Source: Methyloceanibacter sp.
Lineage (GTDB): Bacteria > Pseudomonadota > Alphaproteobacteria > Rhizobiales > Methyloligellaceae
Direction: 5' to 3'
Length of the DNA stretch: 35,890 nt
Assembly (NCBI GenBank): GCA_035260265.1
Contig: DATFVO010000075.1
Span: 1-35,890, forward strand
This document shows, piece by piece, positions 6,886-17,674 of the stretch. A model generated the notes under the pieces. That model had not been told where the DNA came from and made no database searches. It saw only the letters and a program-made list of their open reading frames with translations. The position numbers and the translations under genes were made by a program. The first letter of the stretch is position 1, and each line of letters starts with the position of its first letter.

Positions 6886-9800
6886 TCAAGGCTGGCGCTG
6901 TTCCGCCAGGAGGCGGCACTCCGCGACATCAAGCGAACTTGATGGGATTTCCATAAGCCGCGGGCCGTCGGTCCACAACAGCCCTGCGCGAATCGCCCGG
7001 CCTGGGAACAGTTTCTTGAGCGCGAGCCGGTAGGCGGCGAGCTGGTTGATATAGGCCGGCGCCACATCCTCAAGCGTCAATGGCGGCGGCCGATTCGTCT
7101 TGTAGTCTAGGATGAGAAGTTCGCCCTCGAGCACCGCGAAGCGATCGATCTGGCCGTCGAGCTCGGAACCGGTCTCGCCTTCACCGATCTTCGCCACGAC
7201 CGGGACTTCGGCGAGGCTGCCCGGCCGGAACAGCGGAGCAAAGGAGGGATCCCGCACGATCGCAAGCGTCTCAGCCAGGATCTCGTCCTTGAGCTTTTGG
7301 TCGAGGGTTGCGTCACGCGCCGCGACGAAGGCGCGTGCAGCCCGCTCCTGGGCCTCGGGGGCTACCTCCGGGAGATGCTGCAATAGGGCATGCACGAGCA
7401 GCCCGCGGGCGTAGCGGCCGCCTTGACTGAGCGCCCTCGGACCGAGCGGCGGCTGCTCGCCGGCGCGCTCTTGCGAGATGCCGTCTGGCCCGAGCGTTAG
7501 CCTCGATGGCGCAAGCCTCCGGCGCGAGCGCTCAGGCTTGGCCGGGGCCAGCGCCCAGTCCAGCAGAGGTGCGGCCTTGTGCTCTTCTTCCTTGGTCTCG
7601 CGCGGCGATACCGCTGCCGCCTGCGCGCTCTCCATCCTGCGTACCGACGTTCCATCGGGGTTGGCGATCTCAACAAGATGACCGGCTAGCCCATCCTTGA
7701 TGAGCTCGTACCAGCACTGCTTTTCGGGGTTATCCCTCTGGCCCTGCCAGCCGCAGATATAGAGCCGGTCGCGCGCGCGCGTCATGGCGACGTAGAGGAG
7801 CCGGTGATATTCCTCGCGCTCGGACTGCTGGAGGCAAGCCTTGGCATCGGACAGTGCCGCAAGGTCGGAGTGGCCTGCTGGCGGCCAGACGAAGTGCTCA
7901 ACCTCGCCGGGTGATGCACCAGGGCGCGGCAAGGGGAAGAGCCGCGGACCCTGCGGCCGCGGCAGCATGCAGGTGTCGGGCAGGAACACGATCGGCGCCT
8001 GCAAGCCCTTGGCGCCATGCACCGTCATGATGCGCACCTCGTCGCGGTCCTGCTCCATGTCGCGCTTGATCTCGATGTCGTCGGTGCGGAGCTTGTCGAT
8101 GAAGCCCTGGAGCGAAGGCGCGGCCTCGCGGTCATACGCAAGCGCGAGGTCGAGGAACTCGTCGATCGCCTCCGCAGCCTCTGGCCCAAGCCTTGTCAGC
8201 ATGCGCTTGCGCATGAGCTGTCCCTCGGCGCCAAGCAGCTCCGAGAAGAACTCGTAGGGCGGCAGGTAGTCCGCGCGTGCGAGCCACGCAGACAGGCGCG
8301 TGCAGGCTTCGGCAAACCGCGTGTCCTCCTTGGCCTTGTCTCCGAGCTGAGACCACAGCGAGCGCGGGCGCCGGTCATAGGCGAGATCGAACAGCGCATC
8401 GTCGTCCAAACCGAACAAAGGACTCTTCAACACTACCGCGAGCGCAAGGTCGTCCTCGGGCATGAGCAGCACGTCGGCGAGCGCGACGAGGTCCTGCACG
8501 GCAAGCTGGTCCATGAGCCGCATGCGGTCCGCGCCGGCGACCGGGATGCCCTCGTGCTTCAGCGCACGGATCATTGGCGTGATGAATGGATCGCGGCGGC
8601 GGACGAGGATCAGAATGTCGCCCGCCTTGACATTGCGGCCTTGCGAAACCAAGGGCTCGCGTTCAGTGAGCCAGCGCTTGATCTGCTTCGCGATGCGTCG
8701 GCAAAGCTGATCGACTGAGCGGGCGCCAGCTGCCTCCTCGTTCCACGGTTCGAACGCCTCGGCAGGCTCAGGCTTGGTCTCGGTCTCGGTTTCCCAGACT
8801 TCCACCAGTCCCGCTTCGCCTTTGCGATGCGCGTGGTGCTTGATGACGCTGGTCGCGAGCGTCATCAACCCTTGCGCGGCCTGCGGCGTGGCGAAGACAT
8901 GATCGACGGCATCAAGAATTGGCTCTGTCGAGCGGAAAGAGAGATTGAGCGGCACGTCGTGCCAAACAAGCCCGGCCGCTTCAGCCCTGCGCTTTAAGGC
9001 GTGGCCAACCTCGCCGAATCGCGCCGGGTCGGCGCCCTGGAAGCTGTAGATCGACTGCTTCTCGTCGCCGACGGCGAACAGCGTGCGCGGCTTTCCGTTT
9101 GCATCGCCCGCGCCTCCGCCGGCGAAGAACTCCTCGGCCAATCGCTCGATAATGGTCCATTGCTGAAGATTGGTATCCTGCGCTTCGTCGACCAGGATGT
9201 GATCGATACCACCGTCGATCTTGTAGAGCACCCAGGCGGCGGCATCGGCACGCGATAGCAGGTTCGATGTCTTGATAATGAGGTCGTCGTAATCGAGCAT
9301 GGCCTCGGCCTGCTTGCGCCGCTCATAGTTGGCCTGGATCGCGTCGGCGAAGGCCAGCACGGCGGCGCTCGCCTCAGCCACGCGCAAATGCGCGAGCTTG
9401 AGATCGAGCGCGGCAAAGCGGTCGCGCGCCTCTTCGAGAGCGGCGCAGAGTGCGGGAACCGCGTCTTTCAGCGCCTTGCTGCAAAATCGTTGGCGCGGCT
9501 CACCTTTGTCGGTGCAGAAGATGGTCCTGAACAGAGAGGCGCGTCCTTCACCGTCCCCGTCCTTGGCCGCCGCGAGGCTCGATTTTAGCCTCTCGTCATC
9601 GGCTGTCGCGGAGTGCATGACGAGAGCTTGCAACAGCGCGTCAATTTCGCTGTCGGTCAGCACGGCCGCGAGCATGGCGGTGAGCGCGTCTTCCTGCTCG
9701 GCCTCGACGCGAAGCAGGCGCTTGAGCGCCAAGCCCTCAACCTCGACCCAGTCAGGACGAGAATCGTGATACGCCATCATGGCGGCGAGCTCCGTGCGCT

Positions 9801-10413
9801 TGCCAAGCACGGTGTTCACCACTTGGCGTAAATACTCCTCGCTGGTCAGCGCGATGACCGTCGCGAGCGCCTTCCCGAGCGTGCTGTCACGCTCTTCTGC
9901 GGCACGGGCGATCGTTGCGTCGAAGGCTTGCCGCCGCATCTCCGCCTGGCCGCGCTCGTCGAGCACCTTGAAATGCGGTGTGACCTGGGCCTCGAACGGG
10001 AAGCGCTGCAACAGGCGCTCGCAGAAGCCGTGGATGGTATGGATCTTCAGCCCGCCCCTCGCTTCGAGCGCGCGGGCGAAGAGGCGCCGCGCGGTGCGTA
10101 GGTGCTCCTCCTCGGTCGCGCGCCCCATCAGCGCAAGCAGCTCTTTGCGCAACTCGCCCTCAGAAGCCGTCGCCCAGCGCGCGAGATCATCGAGTAGCCG
10201 GTTCTGCATCTCTGCCGCGGCCGTCTTGGTGTAGGTGAGGCAGAGGATCGATTCGGGCTTGGAGCCGGCGATGAGGAGGCACAACACCCGCCTGACCAGG
10301 ACCTCGGTCTTCCCCGTGCCGGCATTGGCCGACACCCACGCCGAGGCCTCGGGGTCGGAGGCCCGCGCCTGATTGCGGTCGGTCTCGTGGGGAAGCGGCG
10401 GCTGGTCGTTCAT
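6886..10413 (-). CDS. addA: Double-strand break repair helicase/nuclease AddA
   Basis: SANAGTGKT, LVDEAQD, VGDEKQSIYSFQGA, MTVHGAKGL, LLYVAMTRA, C-terminal GQIDR...DYKT nuclease; ATG 10413 overlaps the addB stop (ATGA). Confidence 0.97.
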   Translation of the reverse strand: MNDQPPLPHETDRNQARASDPEASAWVSANAGTGKTEVLVRRVLCLLIAGSKPESILCLTYTKTAAAEMQNRLLDDLARWATASEGELRKELLALMGRATEEEHLRTARRLFARALEARGGLKIHTIHGFCERLLQRFPFEAQVTPHFKVLDERGQAEMRRQAFDATIARAAEERDSTLGKALATVIALTSEEYLRQVVNTVLGKRTELAAMMAYHDSRPDWVEVEGLALKRLLRVEAEQEDALTAMLAAVLTDSEIDALLQALVMHSATADDERLKSSLAAAKDGDGEGRASLFRTIFCTDKGEPRQRFCSKALKDAVPALCAALEEARDRFAALDLKLAHLRVAEASAAVLAFADAIQANYERRKQAEAMLDYDDLIIKTSNLLSRADAAAWVLYKIDGGIDHILVDEAQDTNLQQWTIIERLAEEFFAGGGAGDANGKPRTLFAVGDEKQSIYSFQGADPARFGEVGHALKRRAEAAGLVWHDVPLNLSFRSTEPILDAVDHVFATPQAAQGLMTLATSVIKHHAHRKGEAGLVEVWETETETKPEPAEAFEPWNEEAAGARSVDQLCRRIAKQIKRWLTEREPLVSQGRNVKAGDILILVRRRDPFITPMIRALKHEGIPVAGADRMRLMDQLAVQDLVALADVLLMPEDDLALAVVLKSPLFGLDDDALFDLAYDRRPRSLWSQLGDKAKEDTRFAEACTRLSAWLARADYLPPYEFFSELLGAEGQLMRKRMLTRLGPEAAEAIDEFLDLALAYDREAAPSLQGFIDKLRTDDIEIKRDMEQDRDEVRIMTVHGAKGLQAPIVFLPDTCMLPRPQGPRLFPLPRPGASPGEVEHFVWPPAGHSDLAALSDAKACLQQSEREEYHRLLYVAMTRARDRLYICGWQGQRDNPEKQCWYELIKDGLAGHLVEIANPDGTSVRRMESAQAAAVSPRETKEEEHKAAPLLDWALAPAKPERSRRRLAPSRLTLGPDGISQERAGEQPPLGPRALSQGGRYARGLLVHALLQHLPEVAPEAQERAARAFVAARDATLDQKLKDEILAETLAIVRDPSFAPLFRPGSLAEVPVVAKIGEGETGSELDGQIDRFAVLEGELLILDYKTNRPPPLTLEDVAPAYINQLAAYRLALKKLFPGRAIRAGLLWTDGPRLMEIPSSSLDVAECRLLAEQRQP

Positions 10414-13400
10414 CGCCACTCCTCCTCGGCCTCTTGGGTGAGCCACTCGTCGACGCGGGCGAGATGGGCGTATTCGTCGTATTCGTAAAGCCGCCTGAAC
10501 ACTGATCTGCGCTTGACCTCGTACGGCATGTCCGGCCGGTAGTAGCGATCGACGAGTGCGGCCAAGTCTTTGAGGGCTCTACTCGCCAAGCTTGCGGGTG
10601 CAGACGTTCCGGCGGCGGTCTCCTCGCCGCCGTCGTTTCGTCCCGAGGCTTTGATGTAGCGAATGGCCTGGACCGGCCGCTTGCCGAGCTCGGCAAAGCC
10701 GCCATGCTCGGCGATCGCCGCTTCTAGCGGAAGCTGCGGGGCGAATAGCGTCTCGACATGTTTCGAAATCGGCACGCTGCCGGTCTTATAGTCGTAGATG
10801 ACGATAGAGCCGTCCTCGCCAATGTCGATGCGATCGGCGCGGGCAGTCAGCTCAAAGTCCGAGGCGAGCTTGAGCGTGCCTGTGACTTCGGTGTGTGTCC
10901 GCTCGGCGAAGGTCCGCCGCGCGGGCTCGGTCGCGGCGAACCAGCGGGCGAATTGCTGGAAGGCAGGCCGCCAGAAGGCCTCCACGCGCGGGGAGCCGCC
11001 CAACTCCTTTAAGGCACGGTCCGCGAAGGTAATCAGCTCGGCGTAAATGTTGGCCGGCAAGCTGTCGGGATAGGCCTCCGCAAAGTCATGCACGGCCCTG
11101 TGCACGATCTGGCCGCGCAAGGCTTGGTCGGGCTCGGTACCGAGCGGCTTCAAGGGTTCGAGCCTCAAGATGTCGCGCGCGAAGATCTCGTAAGGATTGG
11201 CGATCCATTTCTCGATGCGCGTCACGCTGAGCCTGCGCGGCCTCGCGTCGATGGGAGGGCACGGTCTTGGCGGCTTGGCCGGAGCGAAGCCCGGCGTGTG
11301 GTCTCGCTCGCGCGCCCACTCGACCCAAGGCTGCTCGGGCTTGATCTTGTTTTCCAGGCCCGAGGCGGTCACCAGCGCTTCCAGCCGCTGCAGCCAGCGC
11401 GAAGGCACGATCGGCACGCCGTCCACCTTCAGTGCGCGCGTGAGGTAGACGGTGCCAGCGCCGAGCGCCTGCGCGAAATCGTGGGCGGCAAGTCCGATGC
11501 GCCGCTCTGGCGGACTCAATCCGAGCGCCTCGCGCATGGGCCTGCTGAGCCAAGGGCCAGACTCTCGCGGTCGCGGCCAAACGCCTTCGTTAAGGCTGCC
11601 GAGGATCACGACATCGGGTTGCTGGAGTCTCGCCTCGAGCGGGCCCCAGATGAAGAGGCGAGGGTGCAAAGGAAAGCGCGGCCGGACCACTTCGTCTGCG
11701 ATCAGGCTGCGGTAGAAGGGCGGGTAGTCTGCGAGGCCGATGGTGAGGCTGCGCCCGGCATCGATCAGCTCGGCGAGCAGCACCGACAACGCCTCTCCGG
11801 CATCGCCTTGCCACAGTGCTGATGGCGAGCCGCGCTCGTCCCGCGCCAAGGCTTCGGCAACTTCCGCATGGGCTCGTGCGAATTCCGCCGCCTGGCGCGA
11901 AGTCCGGTCCCCGAACAGAGCCGTGAGCGGGGCGAAGGCGACTTCGAGATCGGCGACGAGCTTGAGAGCGACTGTCTGCTCCTGCTCGCTGATTGGTGCG
12001 CGGCGTTGCTTTTCCTCGTCGCGCGCCGCTCGGAGCGCATCGCGCGCGCCCGCGAAGCCTTGTCCAACATAGATGTCGCGGAAGGCGCCGCGCTCGAACG
12101 CCCGCGCCGCAGTCCTGATTGCTGCGGGCGAGCGCCCAAGCAGGGCAAGAGGATGCTTCAGAAGCGCCATCAGCTCTGGCGGCGCAAAGTTTGTCTCGAT
12201 TGCGCCAAGCACCAGATCGAGGAAAGTGCCGGGAACCGTGCGCGCAACAGGCACGCCAGCCGAGTCGTCGATGGTGAGATCATAGCGCTTGAGCTGCGCC
12301 GCCACGCGCCGCGCCAGCACACGGTCGGGCGTGACCAGGGCCGCGGTCTTTCCCGGCGTCTCGATGACGGACTTGAGGATCAGCGCGATGGCTTCGGCCT
12401 CGTCATGGGCTGTCGGCGCGACCACTAAGCGAATACCGGCAAGCGCGTTGGCGAAGCTCGCGCGCGCCAAACCGTCAGCATCGAGGAAGCGCCGCCAATG
12501 CTCGGTGCTCTCAGCCGGCCGGAGCGCCTCGCTCATGAGATGAAGCCGCGCGCGGGCGCTCGCGTTGGGTTCGCTACCCGGCACGAAGGCAACATCCTTG
12601 CGCTCCACGCCGAGCTTGCGCAGCAGCTCAGCCATGCCGGCCTGCGGATGCTCGGGGTGATCTCCGAGCAGCGCCCAGCTTTCATCATCAAGTGAGAGGT
12701 CAAGGCCCGGCAGCACGACGGCGCCGTTCGGCAATGAGGCGATGGTCCTGAGCAGATGCGCAGTCGCAGGCACGGTGCCGGTCGATCCCGCAGCGATCAC
12801 TGGATAGGGTGAGCCTTGCGCCAGGCGCTTGGTCTCTTGCGCCATCAGCAAATTGCGGCGTGTCATGGGTGAGACCAGGCCGTTCTCCTCAAGATGATCA
12901 GGCCAGTGCTCGGTGACGATCTTGAGGAAGTCGACGGTGACCTGCCAATGCGCGGCGAAGTCCTCCGGCACGATCTCGGCGAGCTTGGAAAGATCGACCT
13001 CCTCGCGCTCGACATCGTCCATCAGCCGCGCGAGGTCGGCCGCGAGATAGGAGGCTTGCCCGGGGGTGACCTCCAGCAAAGGTGTCCCCAAGGTGGAGTC
13101 CTCCTGAGCCGGAGCACGCAAGCGGTGGCCTAGGGCCAGCACGAGCTTCATAAGAGCTAAGCGGCGAGGGAGGACGCCGATAGCGGGCGCCCCGATCGCA
13201 CTGTCGTCCTTGGTGCTGTCACCACCACCGAAGATGATTACGGCCTCCTCGTCAGGATCGCCGAGAGCCCTGATGCGCGGAAGGAGCAGCGCTTCGGTTT
13301 CGGCCTCGGCGAGGAAGGCCTCACGCAGGGCGCGCGCGGCACGTCGCGTGGGAAGATAGATGGTGGTGAGAGGAAGCGCGAGCGGATCGGGCTTGGCGCC

Positions 13401-13544
13401 ACCCGCCAGAGGAAAGTCGCCGCCGAGGATCGCCTTGGCGAGGGTTGTAAGGAACGGCGCCGACGGCGGGATGGTGTAGAGCCTCGGCCCCCCTGATAAG
13501 GGTTCAGGTATACTTGGTGGACTCGATTGGACACTCCCTGACAT
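10410..13544 (-). CDS. addB: Double-strand break repair protein AddB; first 12 codons lie inside the integrated element
   Basis: LYTIPPSAPFL, IYLPTRRA, AAGSTG, IWGPLEARLQ, SVTRIE.W..NPY, ARADRID...DYKTG; the in-frame ATG at 13544 is beyond the att repeat. Confidence 0.95.
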   Translation of the reverse strand: MSGSVQSSPPSIPEPLSGGPRLYTIPPSAPFLTTLAKAILGGDFPLAGGAKPDPLALPLTTIYLPTRRAARALREAFLAEAETEALLLPRIRALGDPDEEAVIIFGGGDSTKDDSAIGAPAIGVLPRRLALMKLVLALGHRLRAPAQEDSTLGTPLLEVTPGQASYLAADLARLMDDVEREEVDLSKLAEIVPEDFAAHWQVTVDFLKIVTEHWPDHLEENGLVSPMTRRNLLMAQETKRLAQGSPYPVIAAGSTGTVPATAHLLRTIASLPNGAVVLPGLDLSLDDESWALLGDHPEHPQAGMAELLRKLGVERKDVAFVPGSEPNASARARLHLMSEALRPAESTEHWRRFLDADGLARASFANALAGIRLVVAPTAHDEAEAIALILKSVIETPGKTAALVTPDRVLARRVAAQLKRYDLTIDDSAGVPVARTVPGTFLDLVLGAIETNFAPPELMALLKHPLALLGRSPAAIRTAARAFERGAFRDIYVGQGFAGARDALRAARDEEKQRRAPISEQEQTVALKLVADLEVAFAPLTALFGDRTSRQAAEFARAHAEVAEALARDERGSPSALWQGDAGEALSVLLAELIDAGRSLTIGLADYPPFYRSLIADEVVRPRFPLHPRLFIWGPLEARLQQPDVVILGSLNEGVWPRPRESGPWLSRPMREALGLSPPERRIGLAAHDFAQALGAGTVYLTRALKVDGVPIVPSRWLQRLEALVTASGLENKIKPEQPWVEWARERDHTPGFAPAKPPRPCPPIDARPRRLSVTRIEKWIANPYEIFARDILRLEPLKPLGTEPDQALRGQIVHRAVHDFAEAYPDSLPANIYAELITFADRALKELGGSPRVEAFWRPAFQQFARWFAATEPARRTFAERTHTEVTGTLKLASDFELTARADRIDIGEDGSIVIYDYKTGSVPISKHVETLFAPQLPLEAAIAEHGGFAELGKRPVQAIRYIKASGRNDGGEETAAGTSAPASLASRALKDLAALVDRYYRPDMPYEVKRRSVFRRLYEYDEYAHLARVDEWLTQEAEEEWR
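13496..13508. repeat. att core, left copy
   Basis: ATAAGGGTTCAGG; in context CCTGA-TAAGGGT-TCAGG (13492-13508), i.e. 5-bp inverted repeats around a 7-bp spacer. Confidence 0.88.
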
Positions 13545-13599
13545 TAGCGCCTGAAGTCCTTGTAAATGGCACCGCTGGACATTAAGCCCCGTGGTGGGC

Positions 13600-13617
13600 G
13601 CAACCTAATTGCAACCT
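13600..13617 (+). promoter_or_regulatory. Putative integrase arm-type binding sites, left
   Basis: GCAACCT-AATT-GCAACCT, about 90 bp inside the left core and just upstream of the integrase ATG. Confidence 0.7.
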
Positions 13618-13627
13618 AGGGGCGGCA

Positions 13628-14805
13628 ATGCCAACTTTCACTGACAAAATGCTGAAGGGCCTGAAGCCGCAAACGGCGGGACAAAGAGACGTCTGGGACA
13701 AGGTCCTCCCCTGCTTCGGAGTCCGCGTGGGCAGGAAGGCAAAACATTCTTCGTCGGGGTTAGAATCAATGGTCGCTACCGGCGAATCACCCTAGGGCAA
13801 TACGACAGGCTCAGCCTTAAGGATGCACGTGACAAGGCCCGCGACATTATTAATGACGCACAGAGCGGAATCACTCCCGAGCTAAAGAAGAAGCGAGAAG
13901 CCAAGGGCACCTTCGGAGCAGTAGCCGAAGCCTTCATGACGGATTACGCCAGCGAGCATCGCACTCGTGGCGAGATGCAACGCATGATCAACTCCTATCT
14001 TAAGGAATGGCATGATCGCCCAATCTGCGAGATCACCCGCGGCGAAATTAAAGAGCTTTTGCGCGTGAAAGCGCGGACCGCCCCGGTCATGGCGAATCGA
14101 CTGCTGTCGCTTATCACGAAGATTTTTAATTGGGCTCTGAAAGAGGAGTTGATTGAGTCGTCACCGGCAATGCGGATCGAGCGCCCTGGCCAAGAGACGG
14201 AGCGCGAGAGAAGTCTGTCGGCAGAGGAGATAAGGACTGCGTGGACCGCATTCGACAAGCTCGGTTATCCGTTCGGAGCGGTCTACAAGATGGCTTTGGT
14301 GACCGGCCAGGGGCGCGGCGAGATCGCTGGCATGAAGTGGGCCGAGATCAGTGCCGACGGGTGGAAGCTGCCGGGTGAGCGGGCCAAAAAGGGCAAAGGC
14401 CATTTAGTGCCGCTGTCATCCCTCGCCAGAGATATTCTCGACGGCGCACCCCAGATCGGTGAATTGGTTTTCAGGTCTCATCGTGATGCACCGGTTCAGA
14501 ATTGGAGCAAGGCGGCGAAGCAACTTCGTAAGTTGTGCGGGCCGATGGAGCCGTGGCACTTGCAAGACCTCAGCCGAACATTTGCCACGCACCTACGCAG
14601 CCTCGGGGTTGATCGATTGGTGGCGGGGTCGTTGGTGGTAGCTATCGGATTCCTCGAACTATGCCATGCCGAGGAGCCCTCAAAGAAAGCGTGGCGAACG
14701 AGCCGAGCCGAAATAAAGCGTCACTTGGGGCGACTGGGTTTGCTCGGAACCTTCGGTTCTTCGCAGAGCCGTTTGAGATCCGCATTGGCCTCAGCCTCGG
14801 TCTGA
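13628..14805 (+). pseudogene. Tyrosine integrase with N-terminal arm-binding domain; frameshifted, catalytically degenerate, C-terminally truncated
   Basis: ATG 13628 gives MPTFTDKMLKGLKP...VWDKVLPCFGVRVGRKAK; the -1 frame after the A-run at 13741-13744 continues TFFVGVRINGRYRRITLGQYDRLSLKDARDKAR into ORF 13936-14805 (MANRLLSLITKIFNWA, RERSLSAEEI, TGQGRGE, LQDLSRT). Integrase-like sequence ends near 14622. Confidence 0.9.
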
Positions 14806-14969
14806 TAGGAGTCTTTGCCGACCTTCGTCACGGTTGGATCCTTACCTGTCGGCTGAATGTCGACAACAAGGCACACACCGTCAGCCGACCGAACAATCCA
14901 CCACTCCGCGAGGGCAGGCTTAACAAAAACTCCGACGACAAGACCGGCGGTGATTAAGAGGCGGCGCAT
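14721..14969 (-). CDS. Small secreted protein (82 aa), element cargo
   Basis: Signal peptide MRRLLITAGLVVGVFVKPALA, mature WWIVRS...C...P...VG...Y.TEAEA...C with two Cys; GAGG SD upstream. Confidence 0.75.
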   Translation of the reverse strand: MRRLLITAGLVVGVFVKPALAEWWIVRSADGVCLVVDIQPTGKDPTVTKVGKDSYQTEAEANADLKRLCEEPKVPSKPSRPK

Positions 14970-15297
14970 CGGGACGACCTCATGGTCAGTTGTGCCACGG
15001 TCTTTGAAGAAGGACTGAAATGGCGGACTATGGCCTTGCTAGCAGCAAACCCCTAGGAAATTCCCTGATTAAGGGGAGCGTCGGTAATTTCTCCTGCTGC
15101 TTTGATGCAGTTCATGGTGCCAGGAAAAAGGGCCAACCCGCTATAGGCCACTCTTCCCGATGCCAACAATCGGATGCGAGCTAACGCCCGTTGATAGAGA
15201 CCGAAGTTGGTTTCATATGGCCCCCAGCTCGCCACGCGTTTGCTATCCCGCCCGCACCATTCCGACAACTCCGCCTTCGAGCGTAGGCGCGAGAATT

Positions 15298-15316
15298 GCT
15301 ACCTAATCTGCAACCT
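15298..15316 (+). promoter_or_regulatory. Putative integrase arm-type binding sites, right
   Basis: GCTACCT-AATCT-GCAACCT, a near copy of 13600-13617 in the same orientation, about 85 bp inside the right core. Confidence 0.7.
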
Positions 15317-15347
15317 TTTTTCATTCGCGAAAACCAGAGTCTGTGCC

Positions 15348-15360
15348 TAAGAGCTTGGTA
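15348..15360 (-). promoter_or_regulatory. Putative IHF binding site between arm and core sites
   Basis: Minus strand TACCAAGCTCTTA has one mismatch to WATCAANNNNTTR; a weaker equivalent (TTACAAGGACTTC) lies at 13553-13565. Confidence 0.5.
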
Positions 15361-15401
15361 TTGCTTATATTAGCAGGAAAGGTAGCTTCGTTCCCCCCGA
15401 A

Positions 15402-15414
15402 ATAAGGGTTCAGG
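15402..15414. repeat. att core, right copy, overlapping the murU stop codon
   Basis: ATAAGGGTTCAGG identical to 13496-13508; both copies are preceded by a C6 run. Confidence 0.88.
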
Positions 15415-16135
15415 CACCTTCGCGCTCGAATGAGGCCTCTGCCTCGGCCAAGGCTTCAGGCGTGCCGACATGCATCCAGCGGCCGTCGAGCCTTACCCCG
15501 TAGAGCCTTCCCGTAGCGAGTGCCCTGTCCCAAAGGGCGTTCAGCGAGAACCGCTCCTCCGGTGCGTCCTTGAACAGGCGCTCGTCGCAGAGCGACACGC
15601 CGGCGAAGGCGAAGGGCACGATCTCCTTCTCCCCGCGCCGTTGAAGCCTACCGTCGGGCCCCATCGAGAAGTCGCCTTTGGCGGCATAGCCGATGCTGGT
15701 GGCGACCGGCGCAAGGAGCAGCAGGCAGTCCATGGCGGCGGGGTCCCACAGCCGCAGCATGCGCTGGAGCGCTGGCGTAGCGCCTTCGCTCCACACCGAG
15801 TCGGCGTTGTGGATGAAGAAAGGTCCGGCGCCGAGCAACGGCAGCGCCTTCTTCGCGCCGCCCCCAGTATCGAGCAGGACACCACGCTCGTCGGAGACAA
15901 GAATCTTCGGAGGCTTGCCCTGCCGGTTCAGCACATGAGCCTCGAGCTGATCGGAGAGATAGTGGACGTTGACCACCGCCGTCTTCACGCCGACTTGCAC
16001 CAGCCGACCGAGCACATGATCGATGAGTGGCCGGCCGGCAAGCGGCACGAGCGGCTTCGGCATGCGCAAGGTCAAGGGACGCATGCGCTCGCCAAATCCC
16101 GCAGCAAGCACCATCGCCGTCTTTGCCTCGGTCAT
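15410..16135 (-). CDS. murU: Nucleotidyltransferase, MurU-like (MurNAc-1-P uridylyltransferase)
   Basis: AMVLAAGFGERMRPLT..PKPL, LDTGGG, WMHVGTPE; follows the AmgK-like kinase. Confidence 0.85.
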   Translation of the reverse strand: MTEAKTAMVLAAGFGERMRPLTLRMPKPLVPLAGRPLIDHVLGRLVQVGVKTAVVNVHYLSDQLEAHVLNRQGKPPKILVSDERGVLLDTGGGAKKALPLLGAGPFFIHNADSVWSEGATPALQRMLRLWDPAAMDCLLLLAPVATSIGYAAKGDFSMGPDGRLQRRGEKEIVPFAFAGVSLCDERLFKDAPEERFSLNALWDRALATGRLYGVRLDGRWMHVGTPEALAEAEASFEREGA

Positions 16136-16147
16136 GGTCGCGGCCCT

Positions 16148-17674
16148 TTACAGCACGAGAGGCGGGAGATCGCCTGCGGGCGGCAGCTCACGCGCGTAGA
16201 AGCGGCGAAGCCCGGCAAGCGCCGGGTGGGCGAGGTCGCGCTCGAGATAGCGCGCGACCCGCGGGATATGAGCAAGATAACCGCGCTTGCCGTCACGTTT
16301 CGCCAATCGCGCAAATATGCCGAGGATCTTAGAGTTGCGTTGGGCGCCGAGCGTTGCGTAGAGGGTACGGAACTGATCTGACGAAAAATGCTGGCTCTGC
16401 GCGTTTCGGGCGGCACAGTAGCGAGCGAGTTCGTCCCGTTCAAGCGCTTCCGGAACGTCGAGGCGGGCATCCTGGAGGAGGGAGACGAGGTCGTAGGCGA
16501 GCGGACCTTTGAGGGCATCCTGGAAGTCGAGGATGCCGACTCGCTTGATGTCCTGTCGCTCGGGCAGCCACATCAAGTTGGGTGAGTGATAGTCGCGGAT
16601 CACCCAGCCGGGGTCGGCCTTTGCGGTTCGCTCCAGGAGGGGCCGCCACAGGCCAAGATATTCCTGGCGAAGCGGTTCAGGCACAGGTTTCCCGTGAACC
16701 GCAGGCCAGAACCAATCGATCAGGAGGGAGGTCTCGGTCAGCATTGCGTCCGCGTCGTAGGCGGGCAGCCGGTAAGAGGCGTGGCCCTCAATGGGCAGAA
16801 GGTCTGGTGGGGGCTTGCTGGCGAGCGCCACCAGGACATCGACGGCAGGCCGATAAAGCTCAGCGAGGGGACGGTCCTTGGCGATTTCGCTGGTGAACAG
16901 CCGGTCGCCGAGGTCTTCAAGGATGAGAAAACCTTCATCGAGGTCGAAGGCGTACACGGTTGGTGTCGACAGGCCACGCTCTCTAAGCGCCTCACCCACT
17001 GCCACGAAGGGCGTGACGTCCTCGGCGAGATGAACAAGGGCACTGTAGGGTTTGCCGTCGCGGATCGGTGGACCGTCAGGCTGCCGGGGCGAGTTCATCA
17101 GGATGGCATTGCGGTCGGGCAGCACGAGCCGCGCGTAGGACCGCGTCGACGCGTCGCCCTGAAGGTACGAGGCACCAGCCTCAGCGTAAGGTGTGTTGTC
17201 GAGGAATTTCCGCAGCTCCCTTAAGCGCGTAAGCCGCGGCTCCCAGTTGCCATGCGCAGTGAACACGATGCGGCGGAGGTTCGGGAGCGCCGTCTCGTCC
17301 ATGGCGATGTCGAGCCGGTCCGCCGGCAGCCAGCACGTGGCGCGCTCAGGCCATTCGATGAGCACCACGCCTTCGCCAAGCGCATCTTCGAGGCCGAGCT
17401 CGTCAAGCTCGGACGGCTCGAGCCGGTAGAAGTCGCAATGGGTGAGGGTGAGCCGCTTCGTCTCATAACGCTGCATCAGGGCGAAGGTCGGGCTCGGCAC
17501 CTCGTCTTCGCCGCCAAGTCGCGTGACTAGCGACCGTGCGAAGGTCGTCTTCCCTGCACCGAGCGGACCGCTCAGCGCGATGACATCGCCGGCTTTGAGC
17601 GAAAGCGCGATACGGCTTACGAGGATATCGAGCCCGACCAGGTCGACATCATCGAGACTCCAACTTAAGCTCAT
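16148..17674 (-). CDS. tsaE: TsaE ATPase fused to AmgK-like (APH-family) phosphotransferase
   Basis: GPLGAGKTTF, VPSPTF, HCDFYRL, LIEWPE, then GDASTRSY, LEDLG, RDYHSPNL, LDFQDA; ATG 17674 overlaps the divL stop. Confidence 0.92.
   Translation of the reverse strand: MSLSWSLDDVDLVGLDILVSRIALSLKAGDVIALSGPLGAGKTTFARSLVTRLGGEDEVPSPTFALMQRYETKRLTLTHCDFYRLEPSELDELGLEDALGEGVVLIEWPERATCWLPADRLDIAMDETALPNLRRIVFTAHGNWEPRLTRLRELRKFLDNTPYAEAGASYLQGDASTRSYARLVLPDRNAILMNSPRQPDGPPIRDGKPYSALVHLAEDVTPFVAVGEALRERGLSTPTVYAFDLDEGFLILEDLGDRLFTSEIAKDRPLAELYRPAVDVLVALASKPPPDLLPIEGHASYRLPAYDADAMLTETSLLIDWFWPAVHGKPVPEPLRQEYLGLWRPLLERTAKADPGWVIRDYHSPNLMWLPERQDIKRVGILDFQDALKGPLAYDLVSLLQDARLDVPEALERDELARYCAARNAQSQHFSSDQFRTLYATLGAQRNSKILGIFARLAKRDGKRGYLAHIPRVARYLERDLAHPALAGLRRFYARELPPAGDLPPLVL

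What the first reader, a model, noticed from the sequence alone, without database searches (positions are those of the whole stretch)
13488..15417. Integrative element targets the addB start and swaps its N-terminus: a candidate recombination switch on AddAB DNA repair
Seen: joining the two 13-bp repeats gives, on the minus strand, GAAG-GTG-CCT-GAA-CCC-TTA-TCA-GGG-GGG-CCG-AGG-CTC-TAC. That is addB starting at a GTG (15417) that overlaps the murU stop. In the integrated state this GTG leads to a 15-aa dead end (MPEPLFRGERSYLSC*, stop 15370-15372). addB instead stays open to an element-encoded ATG at 13544, which adds MSGSVQSSPPSI, head to head with the integrase. Known: elements that integrate into the 5' end of a repair or competence gene can act as switches (SpyCI at mutL, the Listeria comK prophage). 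AddAB is the RecBCD equivalent and also degrades linear foreign DNA. Inference: this element family uncouples addB-addA from the divL-tsaE-murU transcript and puts host end-processing under element control. I do not recall addB as a described att site, but cannot verify novelty.
Basis: partly seen in the sequence, partly recalled or inferred. Interest (0 to 1): 0.88.

Follow-up and report, generated by a model that had tools for sequence, protein, structure and literature searches.

The report
Dead island supplies addB start codon
A small mobile element sits in the first codons of the DNA-repair gene addB in a soil bacterium and likely supplies the gene's new start, but its integrase is broken in this species, so it is most likely a stuck, gene-restoring insertion rather than a working repair switch.

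Summary
A 1,906-bp element with 13-bp att cores (13496-13508, 15402-15414) splits the murU-addB junction, which is uninterrupted in 110 of 112 other genomes of the genus with a match. addB stays open to an element ATG at 13544.

The switch is not supported for this copy. Its integrase is frameshifted, lacks both catalytic arginines and is truncated. The second arginine is missing in every same-species copy checked, and 4 soil runs show the insertion with no empty-site joint. addB and addA stay intact and under purifying selection.

The ATG belongs to an arm repeat and lies at the same distance and frame in 7 of 19 sister elements at other sites. The wider integrase family hits at least 16 sites, mostly TGA-N7-TCA palindromes, tRNA anticodon loops among them.

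What is new: a distinct addB-associated integrase subclade. One sister contig has an intact 387-aa integrase at the same site with the same in-frame ATG. I found no report of addB as an att site, but could not see the key catalogue. It works like dusA islands or SXT at prfC, and has become a locked relic like SpyCIM5. Expression was not tested.

The parts
6886..10413 (-). addA, intact; its ATG overlaps the addB stop
   Evidence: TIGR02784, 1218 bits; translation
10410..13544 (-). addB, 1044 aa in the integrated state; codons from 13508 down are host-derived
   Evidence: TIGR02786, 1029 bits, model starts at residue 21
13509..13544 (-). Element-derived 12 codons (MSGSVQSSPPSI) replacing the native GTG; the ATG is the reverse complement of the third arm repeat TGACAT (13539-13544)
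13488..13508 (.). attL; 13-bp identity block 13496-13508; core is a 5-bp inverted repeat around a 7-bp overlap (CCTGA-N7-TCAGG)
13518..13616 (+). Left arm: three TGGACA-like repeats, the GGACATTAAG motif and GCAACCT/TGCAACC repeats; lacks a 24-bp piece holding one TGCTACC repeat that L100 and L105 retain
13628..14623 (+). Tyrosine-integrase pseudogene (Arm-DNA-bind_3, Phage_int_M, Phage_integrase): one-base frameshift near 13740, first catalytic Arg to Gly, HxxR read as QxxS, C-terminal His and Tyr deleted
14623..14624 (.). Deletion junction that shortened a larger element; shared by 4 of 7 same-species assemblies, while 3 assemblies and 3 runs continue into the full integrase C-terminus
14721..14969 (-). 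82-aa cargo ORF with a hydrophobic N-terminus and no family match; has an internal stop in 3 of 3 other copies
15297..15315 (+). Right arm repeat (TGCTACC ... TGCAACC)
15370..15417 (-). Dead-end 15-aa ORF from the native addB GTG
15394..15414 (.). attR; identity block 15402-15414, containing the murU stop codon
15410..16135 (-). murU-like nucleotidyltransferase, complete in both states
   Evidence: best hit NF045697, below its cut-off
16148..17674 (-). tsaE-amgK fusion
   Evidence: PF02367 + PF01636; TIGR00150 and NF045698
17671..19935 (-). PAS histidine-kinase-like gene with Tyr at the H-box (the divL label is recalled, not from a call)

Best explanation
A tyrosine-integrase element sits in the first codons of addB, where it likely supplies a replacement start codon that keeps addB-addA working, and in this species its integrase is broken, so the insertion is likely locked in place rather than acting as a switch. 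Step 1 (shown): the element belongs to a Methyloceanibacter family whose cores are mostly TGA-N7-TCA palindromes; here the murU stop codon supplies one TGA. Step 2 (inferred): one subclade shifted from tRNA-type sites to the addB palindrome and has used it long enough to diverge into several variants. Step 3 (geometry shown, cause inferred): a pre-existing arm repeat puts an ATG 12 codons from the core in the addB frame, so insertions in this orientation were survivable and persisted. Step 4 (shown): in this species the integrase lost its second catalytic Arg; some strains also carry the frameshift, the loss of the first Arg, an arm deletion and a large internal deletion. Step 5 (inferred, untested): addB-addA is transcribed from an element promoter or by read-through, and translated from ATG 13544.
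For: Empty junction in 110 of 112 congeners. 7 of 28 metagenome hits of the family's left-end motif lie at addB. The addB integrases form one clade (100/100, stem 0.27). Between the window and L100, integrase dS is 0.32 (dN 0.037) against 0.053 for addB and 0.059 for addA, so the elements diverged well before the host loci. The ATG lies exactly 12 codons from the core, in the same register and open, in 7 of 19 non-addB ends; 11 of 19 have some open ATG in that register. Frameshift in 7 of 7 same-species assemblies. Ser for the HxxR Arg in 11 of 11 listed database proteins at least 98% identical to the window copy that cover the motif. addB is open over 1031-1032 codons in L096, L100, L105 and L112. 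Purifying selection between window and L100: p = 3e-5 for addB, 2e-6 for addA. 4 of 4 runs bridge attL and 2 of 4 bridge attR, with no empty-site joint listed. Precedents: dusA islands supply a new 5' end (PMC4482086); SpyCIM5 has a dead integrase and rescued mutL (PMC3430984).
Against: No promoter was found: the sigma-70 scan gave 0 sites in 13300-15600 (shuffle mean 0.7). The ribosome-binding context of ATG 13544 is weak. No RNA data were obtained. dN/dS between window and L100 is 0.40 for addB and 0.38 for addA, above the 0.18 seen against the nearest empty genome G081 (Fisher p = 0.007). Recent divergence inflates this ratio (established knowledge), but some relaxation is not excluded. Only one contig (L100) shows an intact integrase at addB; the sites of clusters P0002-P0005 are unknown. 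Assembled contigs drop rare variants, so low-level excision by a helper integrase is not excluded.
Confidence: 0.68

Rival explanations
1. In the lineages with intact integrases (L100 type, perhaps P0002-P0005), regulated excision and re-integration toggle addB between a murU-coupled GTG and an element-driven ATG and so tune AddAB. The window copy would be a locked descendant of such a switch.
For: L100 has all catalytic residues and the same core and in-frame ATG. At least five clusters at 88-100% identity are catalytically intact. attL and attR overlaps are identical. SpyCI at mutL includes a locked, rescued member (PMC3430984 abstract).
Against: An element that carries a replacement start follows the ordinary gene-restoring rule; regulated gene integrity is described as the exception that lacks a replacement (PMC10111431 passage). 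The ATG is family-wide. The site is rare in the genus (5 of 110). A whole species does without excision while keeping addAB under selection. No empty site or circle was seen.
Confidence: 0.12
2. A single off-target insertion by a site-promiscuous integrase was inherited vertically; there is no addB-specific lineage, and the extra divergence between the two elements comes from recombination.
For: The family uses at least 16 sites. P0143 looks like a mosaic of two variants. All known addB copies lie in two close host lineages (addB dS 0.053), and none was found in the other genus genomes.
Against: The addB clade has a long stem (0.27) with no tRNA-site member inside it. Divergence is spread along the whole element (5-17 differences per 100 bp, against 1-6 in addB) with dN/dS about 0.12. 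The element-side arm of attR resembles addB beyond the core (18 of 21), which fits a long association with this site.
Confidence: 0.12
3. The fixed element lowers addAB expression for good, giving a partial knock-down of double-strand-break end processing that could favour retention of foreign DNA.
For: No promoter found and a weak ribosome-binding context. dN/dS of both addB and addA is raised to about 0.4, while ppdK at similar dS gives 0.11 (L111 may come from a different organism). The genome holds several other relics of this family.
Against: Both genes stay intact and significantly constrained while the neighbouring integrase and cargo ORF decay. The time dependence of dN/dS (established knowledge) can account for the rise.
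Confidence: 0.08

Closest known systems
dusA-associated genomic islands (PMC4482086) and SXT/R391 ICEs at prfC (PMC2786100)
   Same: Tyrosine integrase, site in the 5' end of a conserved coding gene, native 5' end left at the far border, element supplies a new in-frame 5' end (seen in passages for dusA; recalled for SXT, Hochhut and Waldor 1999).
   Different: The target is addB. The replacement is an exapted arm repeat rather than a look-alike of the lost sequence. The site is not conserved across the genus. The window copy is dead.
SpyCI at mutL in Streptococcus pyogenes, especially SpyCIM5 (PMC3430984, abstract)
   Same: An element in the 5' end of a DNA-repair gene within an operon. SpyCIM5 has an inactivated integrase, is stuck, and repair genes are still expressed from an element promoter.
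   Different: Active SpyCI blocks mutL and excises with growth phase. Here the integrated allele has an in-frame start and stays under selection, and no excision was seen.
IntSXT/P4-like arm-binding tyrosine integrases with tRNA sites (PMC8138268)
   Same: Arm-binding plus catalytic domain architecture, 7-bp overlap flanked by inverted repeats, arm repeats; 7 of 19 sister ends lie at tRNA-His, -Thr or -Lys anticodon loops.
   Different: That paper describes clusters with fixed targets. This family changes target often, including into coding genes. The closest annotated phage and plasmid integrases listed are only about 25-33% identical.

Membership tests
Arm-binding tyrosine-integrase island (IntSXT/P4-like) | N-terminal arm-binding domain plus catalytic domain | tested here: met
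   PF13356, PF22022 and PF00589 on L100 above cut-off and on the window fragment; that PF13356 equals DUF4102 is recalled
Arm-binding tyrosine-integrase island (IntSXT/P4-like) | Hybrid attL/attR with a shared overlap, and an empty site in relatives | tested here: met
Arm-binding tyrosine-integrase island (IntSXT/P4-like) | Intact catalytic residues | tested here: not met
   Not met in the window species; met in L100 and P0002-P0005
Gene-restoring 5'-end islands (works like dusA islands, SXT/prfC) | Element supplies an in-frame new 5' end | tested here: met
   ATG 13544 and the L100 equivalent
Gene-restoring 5'-end islands (works like dusA islands, SXT/prfC) | Element supplies a promoter or transcription is otherwise kept | tested here: inconclusive
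   0 consensus promoters; no RNA data; selection on addAB is indirect support
dusA-island or SXT/R391 family proper | Target is dusA or prfC | tested here: not met
   Target is addB; not a member
Regulated-gene-integrity switch (SpyCI/mutL, comK prophage) | Target gene inactive while integrated, no replacement sequence in the element | tested here: not met
   In-frame start present; addB and addA intact and constrained in integrated lineages; criterion from PMC10111431
Regulated-gene-integrity switch (SpyCI/mutL, comK prophage) | Functional integrase and detectable excision | tested here: not met
   Dead integrase and no empty-site joint in 4 runs for the window species; L100-type populations were not examined
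Regulated-gene-integrity switch (SpyCI/mutL, comK prophage) | Condition-dependent excision with a repair phenotype | not testable with these tools
   Needs cultures or raw reads under stress

The most novel reading that the evidence does not exclude
An addB-specific lineage of phage-satellite-like elements, still active in L100-type hosts, has taken over the start codon and promoter of the AddAB operon and changes the cell's double-strand-end processing by excising and re-integrating. This would be a recombination switch on a RecBCD-type enzyme that I could not find described; the window would show a locked descendant.
Probability: 0.12. Interest if true: 0.75.

Novelty: new member of a known kind. 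Interest (0 to 1): 0.33.

Why it matters
It adds addB to the coding genes used as integrase targets, as far as my searches reach. It also catches three steps in one small clade: a move from tRNA-type palindromes to a gene start, use of an arm repeat as a start codon, and stepwise decay into a fixed piece of the host operon. That is a tidy case of att-site diversification and domestication, of moderate interest to mobile-element specialists. It would matter much more if the active relatives proved to regulate AddAB.

Tried and rejected
Assembly artefact: rejected. L092 and L096 span both junctions and run contigs bridge them.

Genus-wide addB hotspot: rejected. No insertion in 112 other genomes with a match. 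The closest genome integrases (60-72%) lie at tRNA-His or an intergenic site.

Wider spread: no match at E 1e-75 in 400 other genomes drawn from the order (only 4 candidates scored per genome). No close relative in IMG/VR or among the phage and plasmid records listed.

ATG as an addB adaptation: rejected.

Helper integrase in the same genome: only a decayed 71% fragment at a contig end and two distant integrases (32% and 28%) were found; the assembly is 91.6% complete.

ruvC as a second repair-gene target (my first guess for L093): wrong; the gene is a GAF/adenylate-guanylate cyclase.

Promoter and terminator scan: uninformative. No RNA coverage was obtained, so transcription is open. The 82-aa cargo ORF matched nothing in Pfam or PHROGs; no atlas answer was obtained.

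Paper search returned irrelevant hits. PMC2654960 (passages) and PMC5443536 (passages) gave nothing usable. Mageeney et al. 2020 and its supplements were not held.
Full report
Setting. The window is contig C75 of G000, a 2.17-Mb assembly in 352 contigs, 91.6% complete. A same-genus record carrying the nearest genome integrase is titled Methyloceanibacter, and the runs holding the stretch are soil metagenomes. The minus strand reads PAS kinase (divL-like; label recalled from the Tyr in the H-box), tsaE-amgK, murU, the insert, addB, addA and a thioredoxin gene.

Observation. A 13-base repeat alone would be weak. But of 113 genus genomes with a match to a relative's junction, 110 of the 112 other than G000 align across it in one piece; G015 and G137 have local gaps without an insertion. 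In the 28 relatives' loci where the addB start region was aligned, murU lies directly upstream and a GTG lies at or within three codons of the matching position. The swap is small: one initiator codon becomes 12 codons, in a stretch that varies among relatives and lies before the start of the AddB model.

The element is a relic. The integrase frame breaks near 13740, both catalytic arginines are replaced and the C-terminus is cut off. A scan of JGI metagenomes with the family's left-end motif gave 28 loci, 7 of them at addB. Six belong to the window's species (addB about 99%). With the window, 7 of 7 share the frameshift, 6 of 7 lack the first Arg, 6 of 7 lack a 24-bp arm piece and 4 of 7 share the large deletion. 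Four runs from different samples were laid. All four bridge attL, two bridge attR, and neither of the two listed joints is the empty site; the piece table was cut, and contigs drop rare variants. In X10, depth is 38.8 across attL and 37.7 across attR against 31.1 on the murU side. Two runs have the frame intact and three continue into the full C-terminus, yet the difference counts on their contigs leave no room for a change at the second Arg codon. Among 30 listed members of two clusters (79 members in all) plus P0070, 11 of 11 proteins at least 98% identical to the window copy that cover the motif have Ser there. So the lesion shared by all copies seen is catalytic, and the other losses are strain-specific.

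A dedicated subclade exists. L100 (addB 95% identical) has a complete 387-aa integrase at the same core, with MSEGVQPSPPGR in frame. Against the window, integrase dS is 0.32 (dN 0.037), while addB is 0.053 and addA 0.059; the excess runs along the whole element. In a 23-row DNA tree the addB elements are one clade (100/100, stem 0.27). Three rows were under half filled, and ends without enough integrase sequence were left out. A protein search found five clusters at 88-100%, then a gap to 75% or less (120 of 257 listed); all five are catalytically intact, but only the first is placed at addB. P0143 looks mosaic, so recombination between variants may add to the divergence.

The wider family is site-promiscuous. 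Of 19 distinct non-addB left ends, 7 lie at tRNA genes (His 5, Thr 1, Lys 1). ARAGORN calls support these for L085, L073 and C132, and the rest are assigned by sequence match. The other 12 lie at 12 other places, including inside a peptidoglycan-binding-domain gene in G000 itself, the first codons of a cyclase gene, the start codon of a HAMP sensor gene, and behind ppdK and a DUF1491 gene. Most cores read TGA-N7-TCA, like an anticodon stem-loop; at addB the murU stop supplies one TGA. That palindrome is rare at addB: 5 of the 27 pattern matches coincide with an addB junction, so 5 of 110 congeners carry it, none with the exact overlap. The nearest genome, G081, lacks it. One complete sister of about 12 kb encodes a DNA polymerase A fragment and a head-protein-like ORF, which suggests a satellite or small prophage origin (inference).

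The start codon. ATG 13544 is the reverse strand of the arm repeat TGACAT. That repeat is present in 9 of 19 non-addB ends; in 7 of 19 it gives an ATG open for exactly 12 codons in the same register, and 11 of 19 have some open ATG in that register. These ends are related, so the counts show that the feature is ancestral, not a probability. The in-frame start therefore needs no addB-specific design; survival of compatible insertions explains it (inference).

Is addB still used? addB is open in L096, L100, L105 and L112, and both genes show purifying selection between window and L100, while the integrase and cargo ORF beside them decay. Against this, dN/dS is about 0.4 compared with 0.18 to G081, no promoter was found and no RNA evidence was obtained. 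How addB is transcribed remains open.

Comparison with what is known. Passages of PMC4482086 describe islands that replace the 5' end of dusA and probably keep it working. PMC2786100 (passage) places SXT/R391 in the 5' end of prfC; its restoration of prfC is recalled. PMC10111431 (passage) states that carrying a replacement is the rule and regulated gene integrity the exception; PMC12884075 (passages) agrees and mentions site-promiscuous clades. The abstract of PMC3430984 describes switching SpyCI and the stuck, rescued SpyCIM5, the nearest picture of this locus. PMC8138268 (passages) defines the integrase subgroup.

Novelty. One search found 0 papers with at least 4 of addB, attB, integrase, AddAB and genomic island. 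In one search none of the 20 listed papers (of 26) contains addB. In one search, 1 of 12 listed (of 23) mentions it once (PMC10883770, listing only, not read). The main texts of PMC12884075, PMC13626063 and PMC11476347 have no addB; their supplements were not searched. Mageeney et al. 2020 and the TIGER database could not be seen and may list the site. Our own index had nothing for this genome or sequence.

Verdict. A real, apparently unreported target gene for a known kind of gene-restoring integrative element, locked in this species. A switch in active relatives is possible but unsupported. Interest 0.33.

Noticed in passing
G000:C331:5250-5845 (L083, L146) and G000:C105 near 15550 (L145): A second element of the same family splits a long coiled-coil gene with a C-terminal peptidoglycan-binding domain (podJ-like; label recalled). 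Its integrase is also decayed, and an arm ATG is in frame with the C-terminal half (33 codons). The same open frame occurs in a tRNA-His sister (L104).
   Followed up: partly
G000:C132 8136-8277; C169 near 2253; C201 near 172: Three more right-arm repeats of this family, one beside tRNA-Lys, suggest that the genome holds about five such elements or relics.
   Followed up: partly
L086, L088, L101, L103, L108, L113 (L086 about 1266-1280): A sister element sits exactly on the start codon of a HAMP/Tar-like sensor gene, with the ATG inside the 7-bp overlap.
   Followed up: partly
L093 and L098; empty site in G000:C225 near 10250: A sister element is inserted in the first codons of a GAF/adenylate-guanylate cyclase gene. 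With addB and the sensor gene, that makes three gene-start targets, perhaps because start/stop junctions are rich in TGA.
   Followed up: partly
L073 2100-14031 (G025:C35): A complete element of about 12 kb at tRNA-Thr has a decayed integrase, a DNA polymerase A fragment, a topoisomerase/primase-like ORF and a major-head-protein-like ORF; it may be a capsid-forming satellite.
   Followed up: partly
window 13618, run X4: One run follows the element only to 13618 and then continues with about 300 unlike bases, probably another decay form of the element.
   Followed up: no
P0143: An integrase with the window-type N-terminus and the P0002-type intact remainder, suggesting recombination between element variants.
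   Followed up: no
L026 (G028) addB start: The usual GTG is GCG here, but another in-frame GTG lies two codons upstream inside murU.
   Followed up: no
window 16148-17674: tsaE and amgK are fused in one ORF upstream of murU.
   Followed up: no
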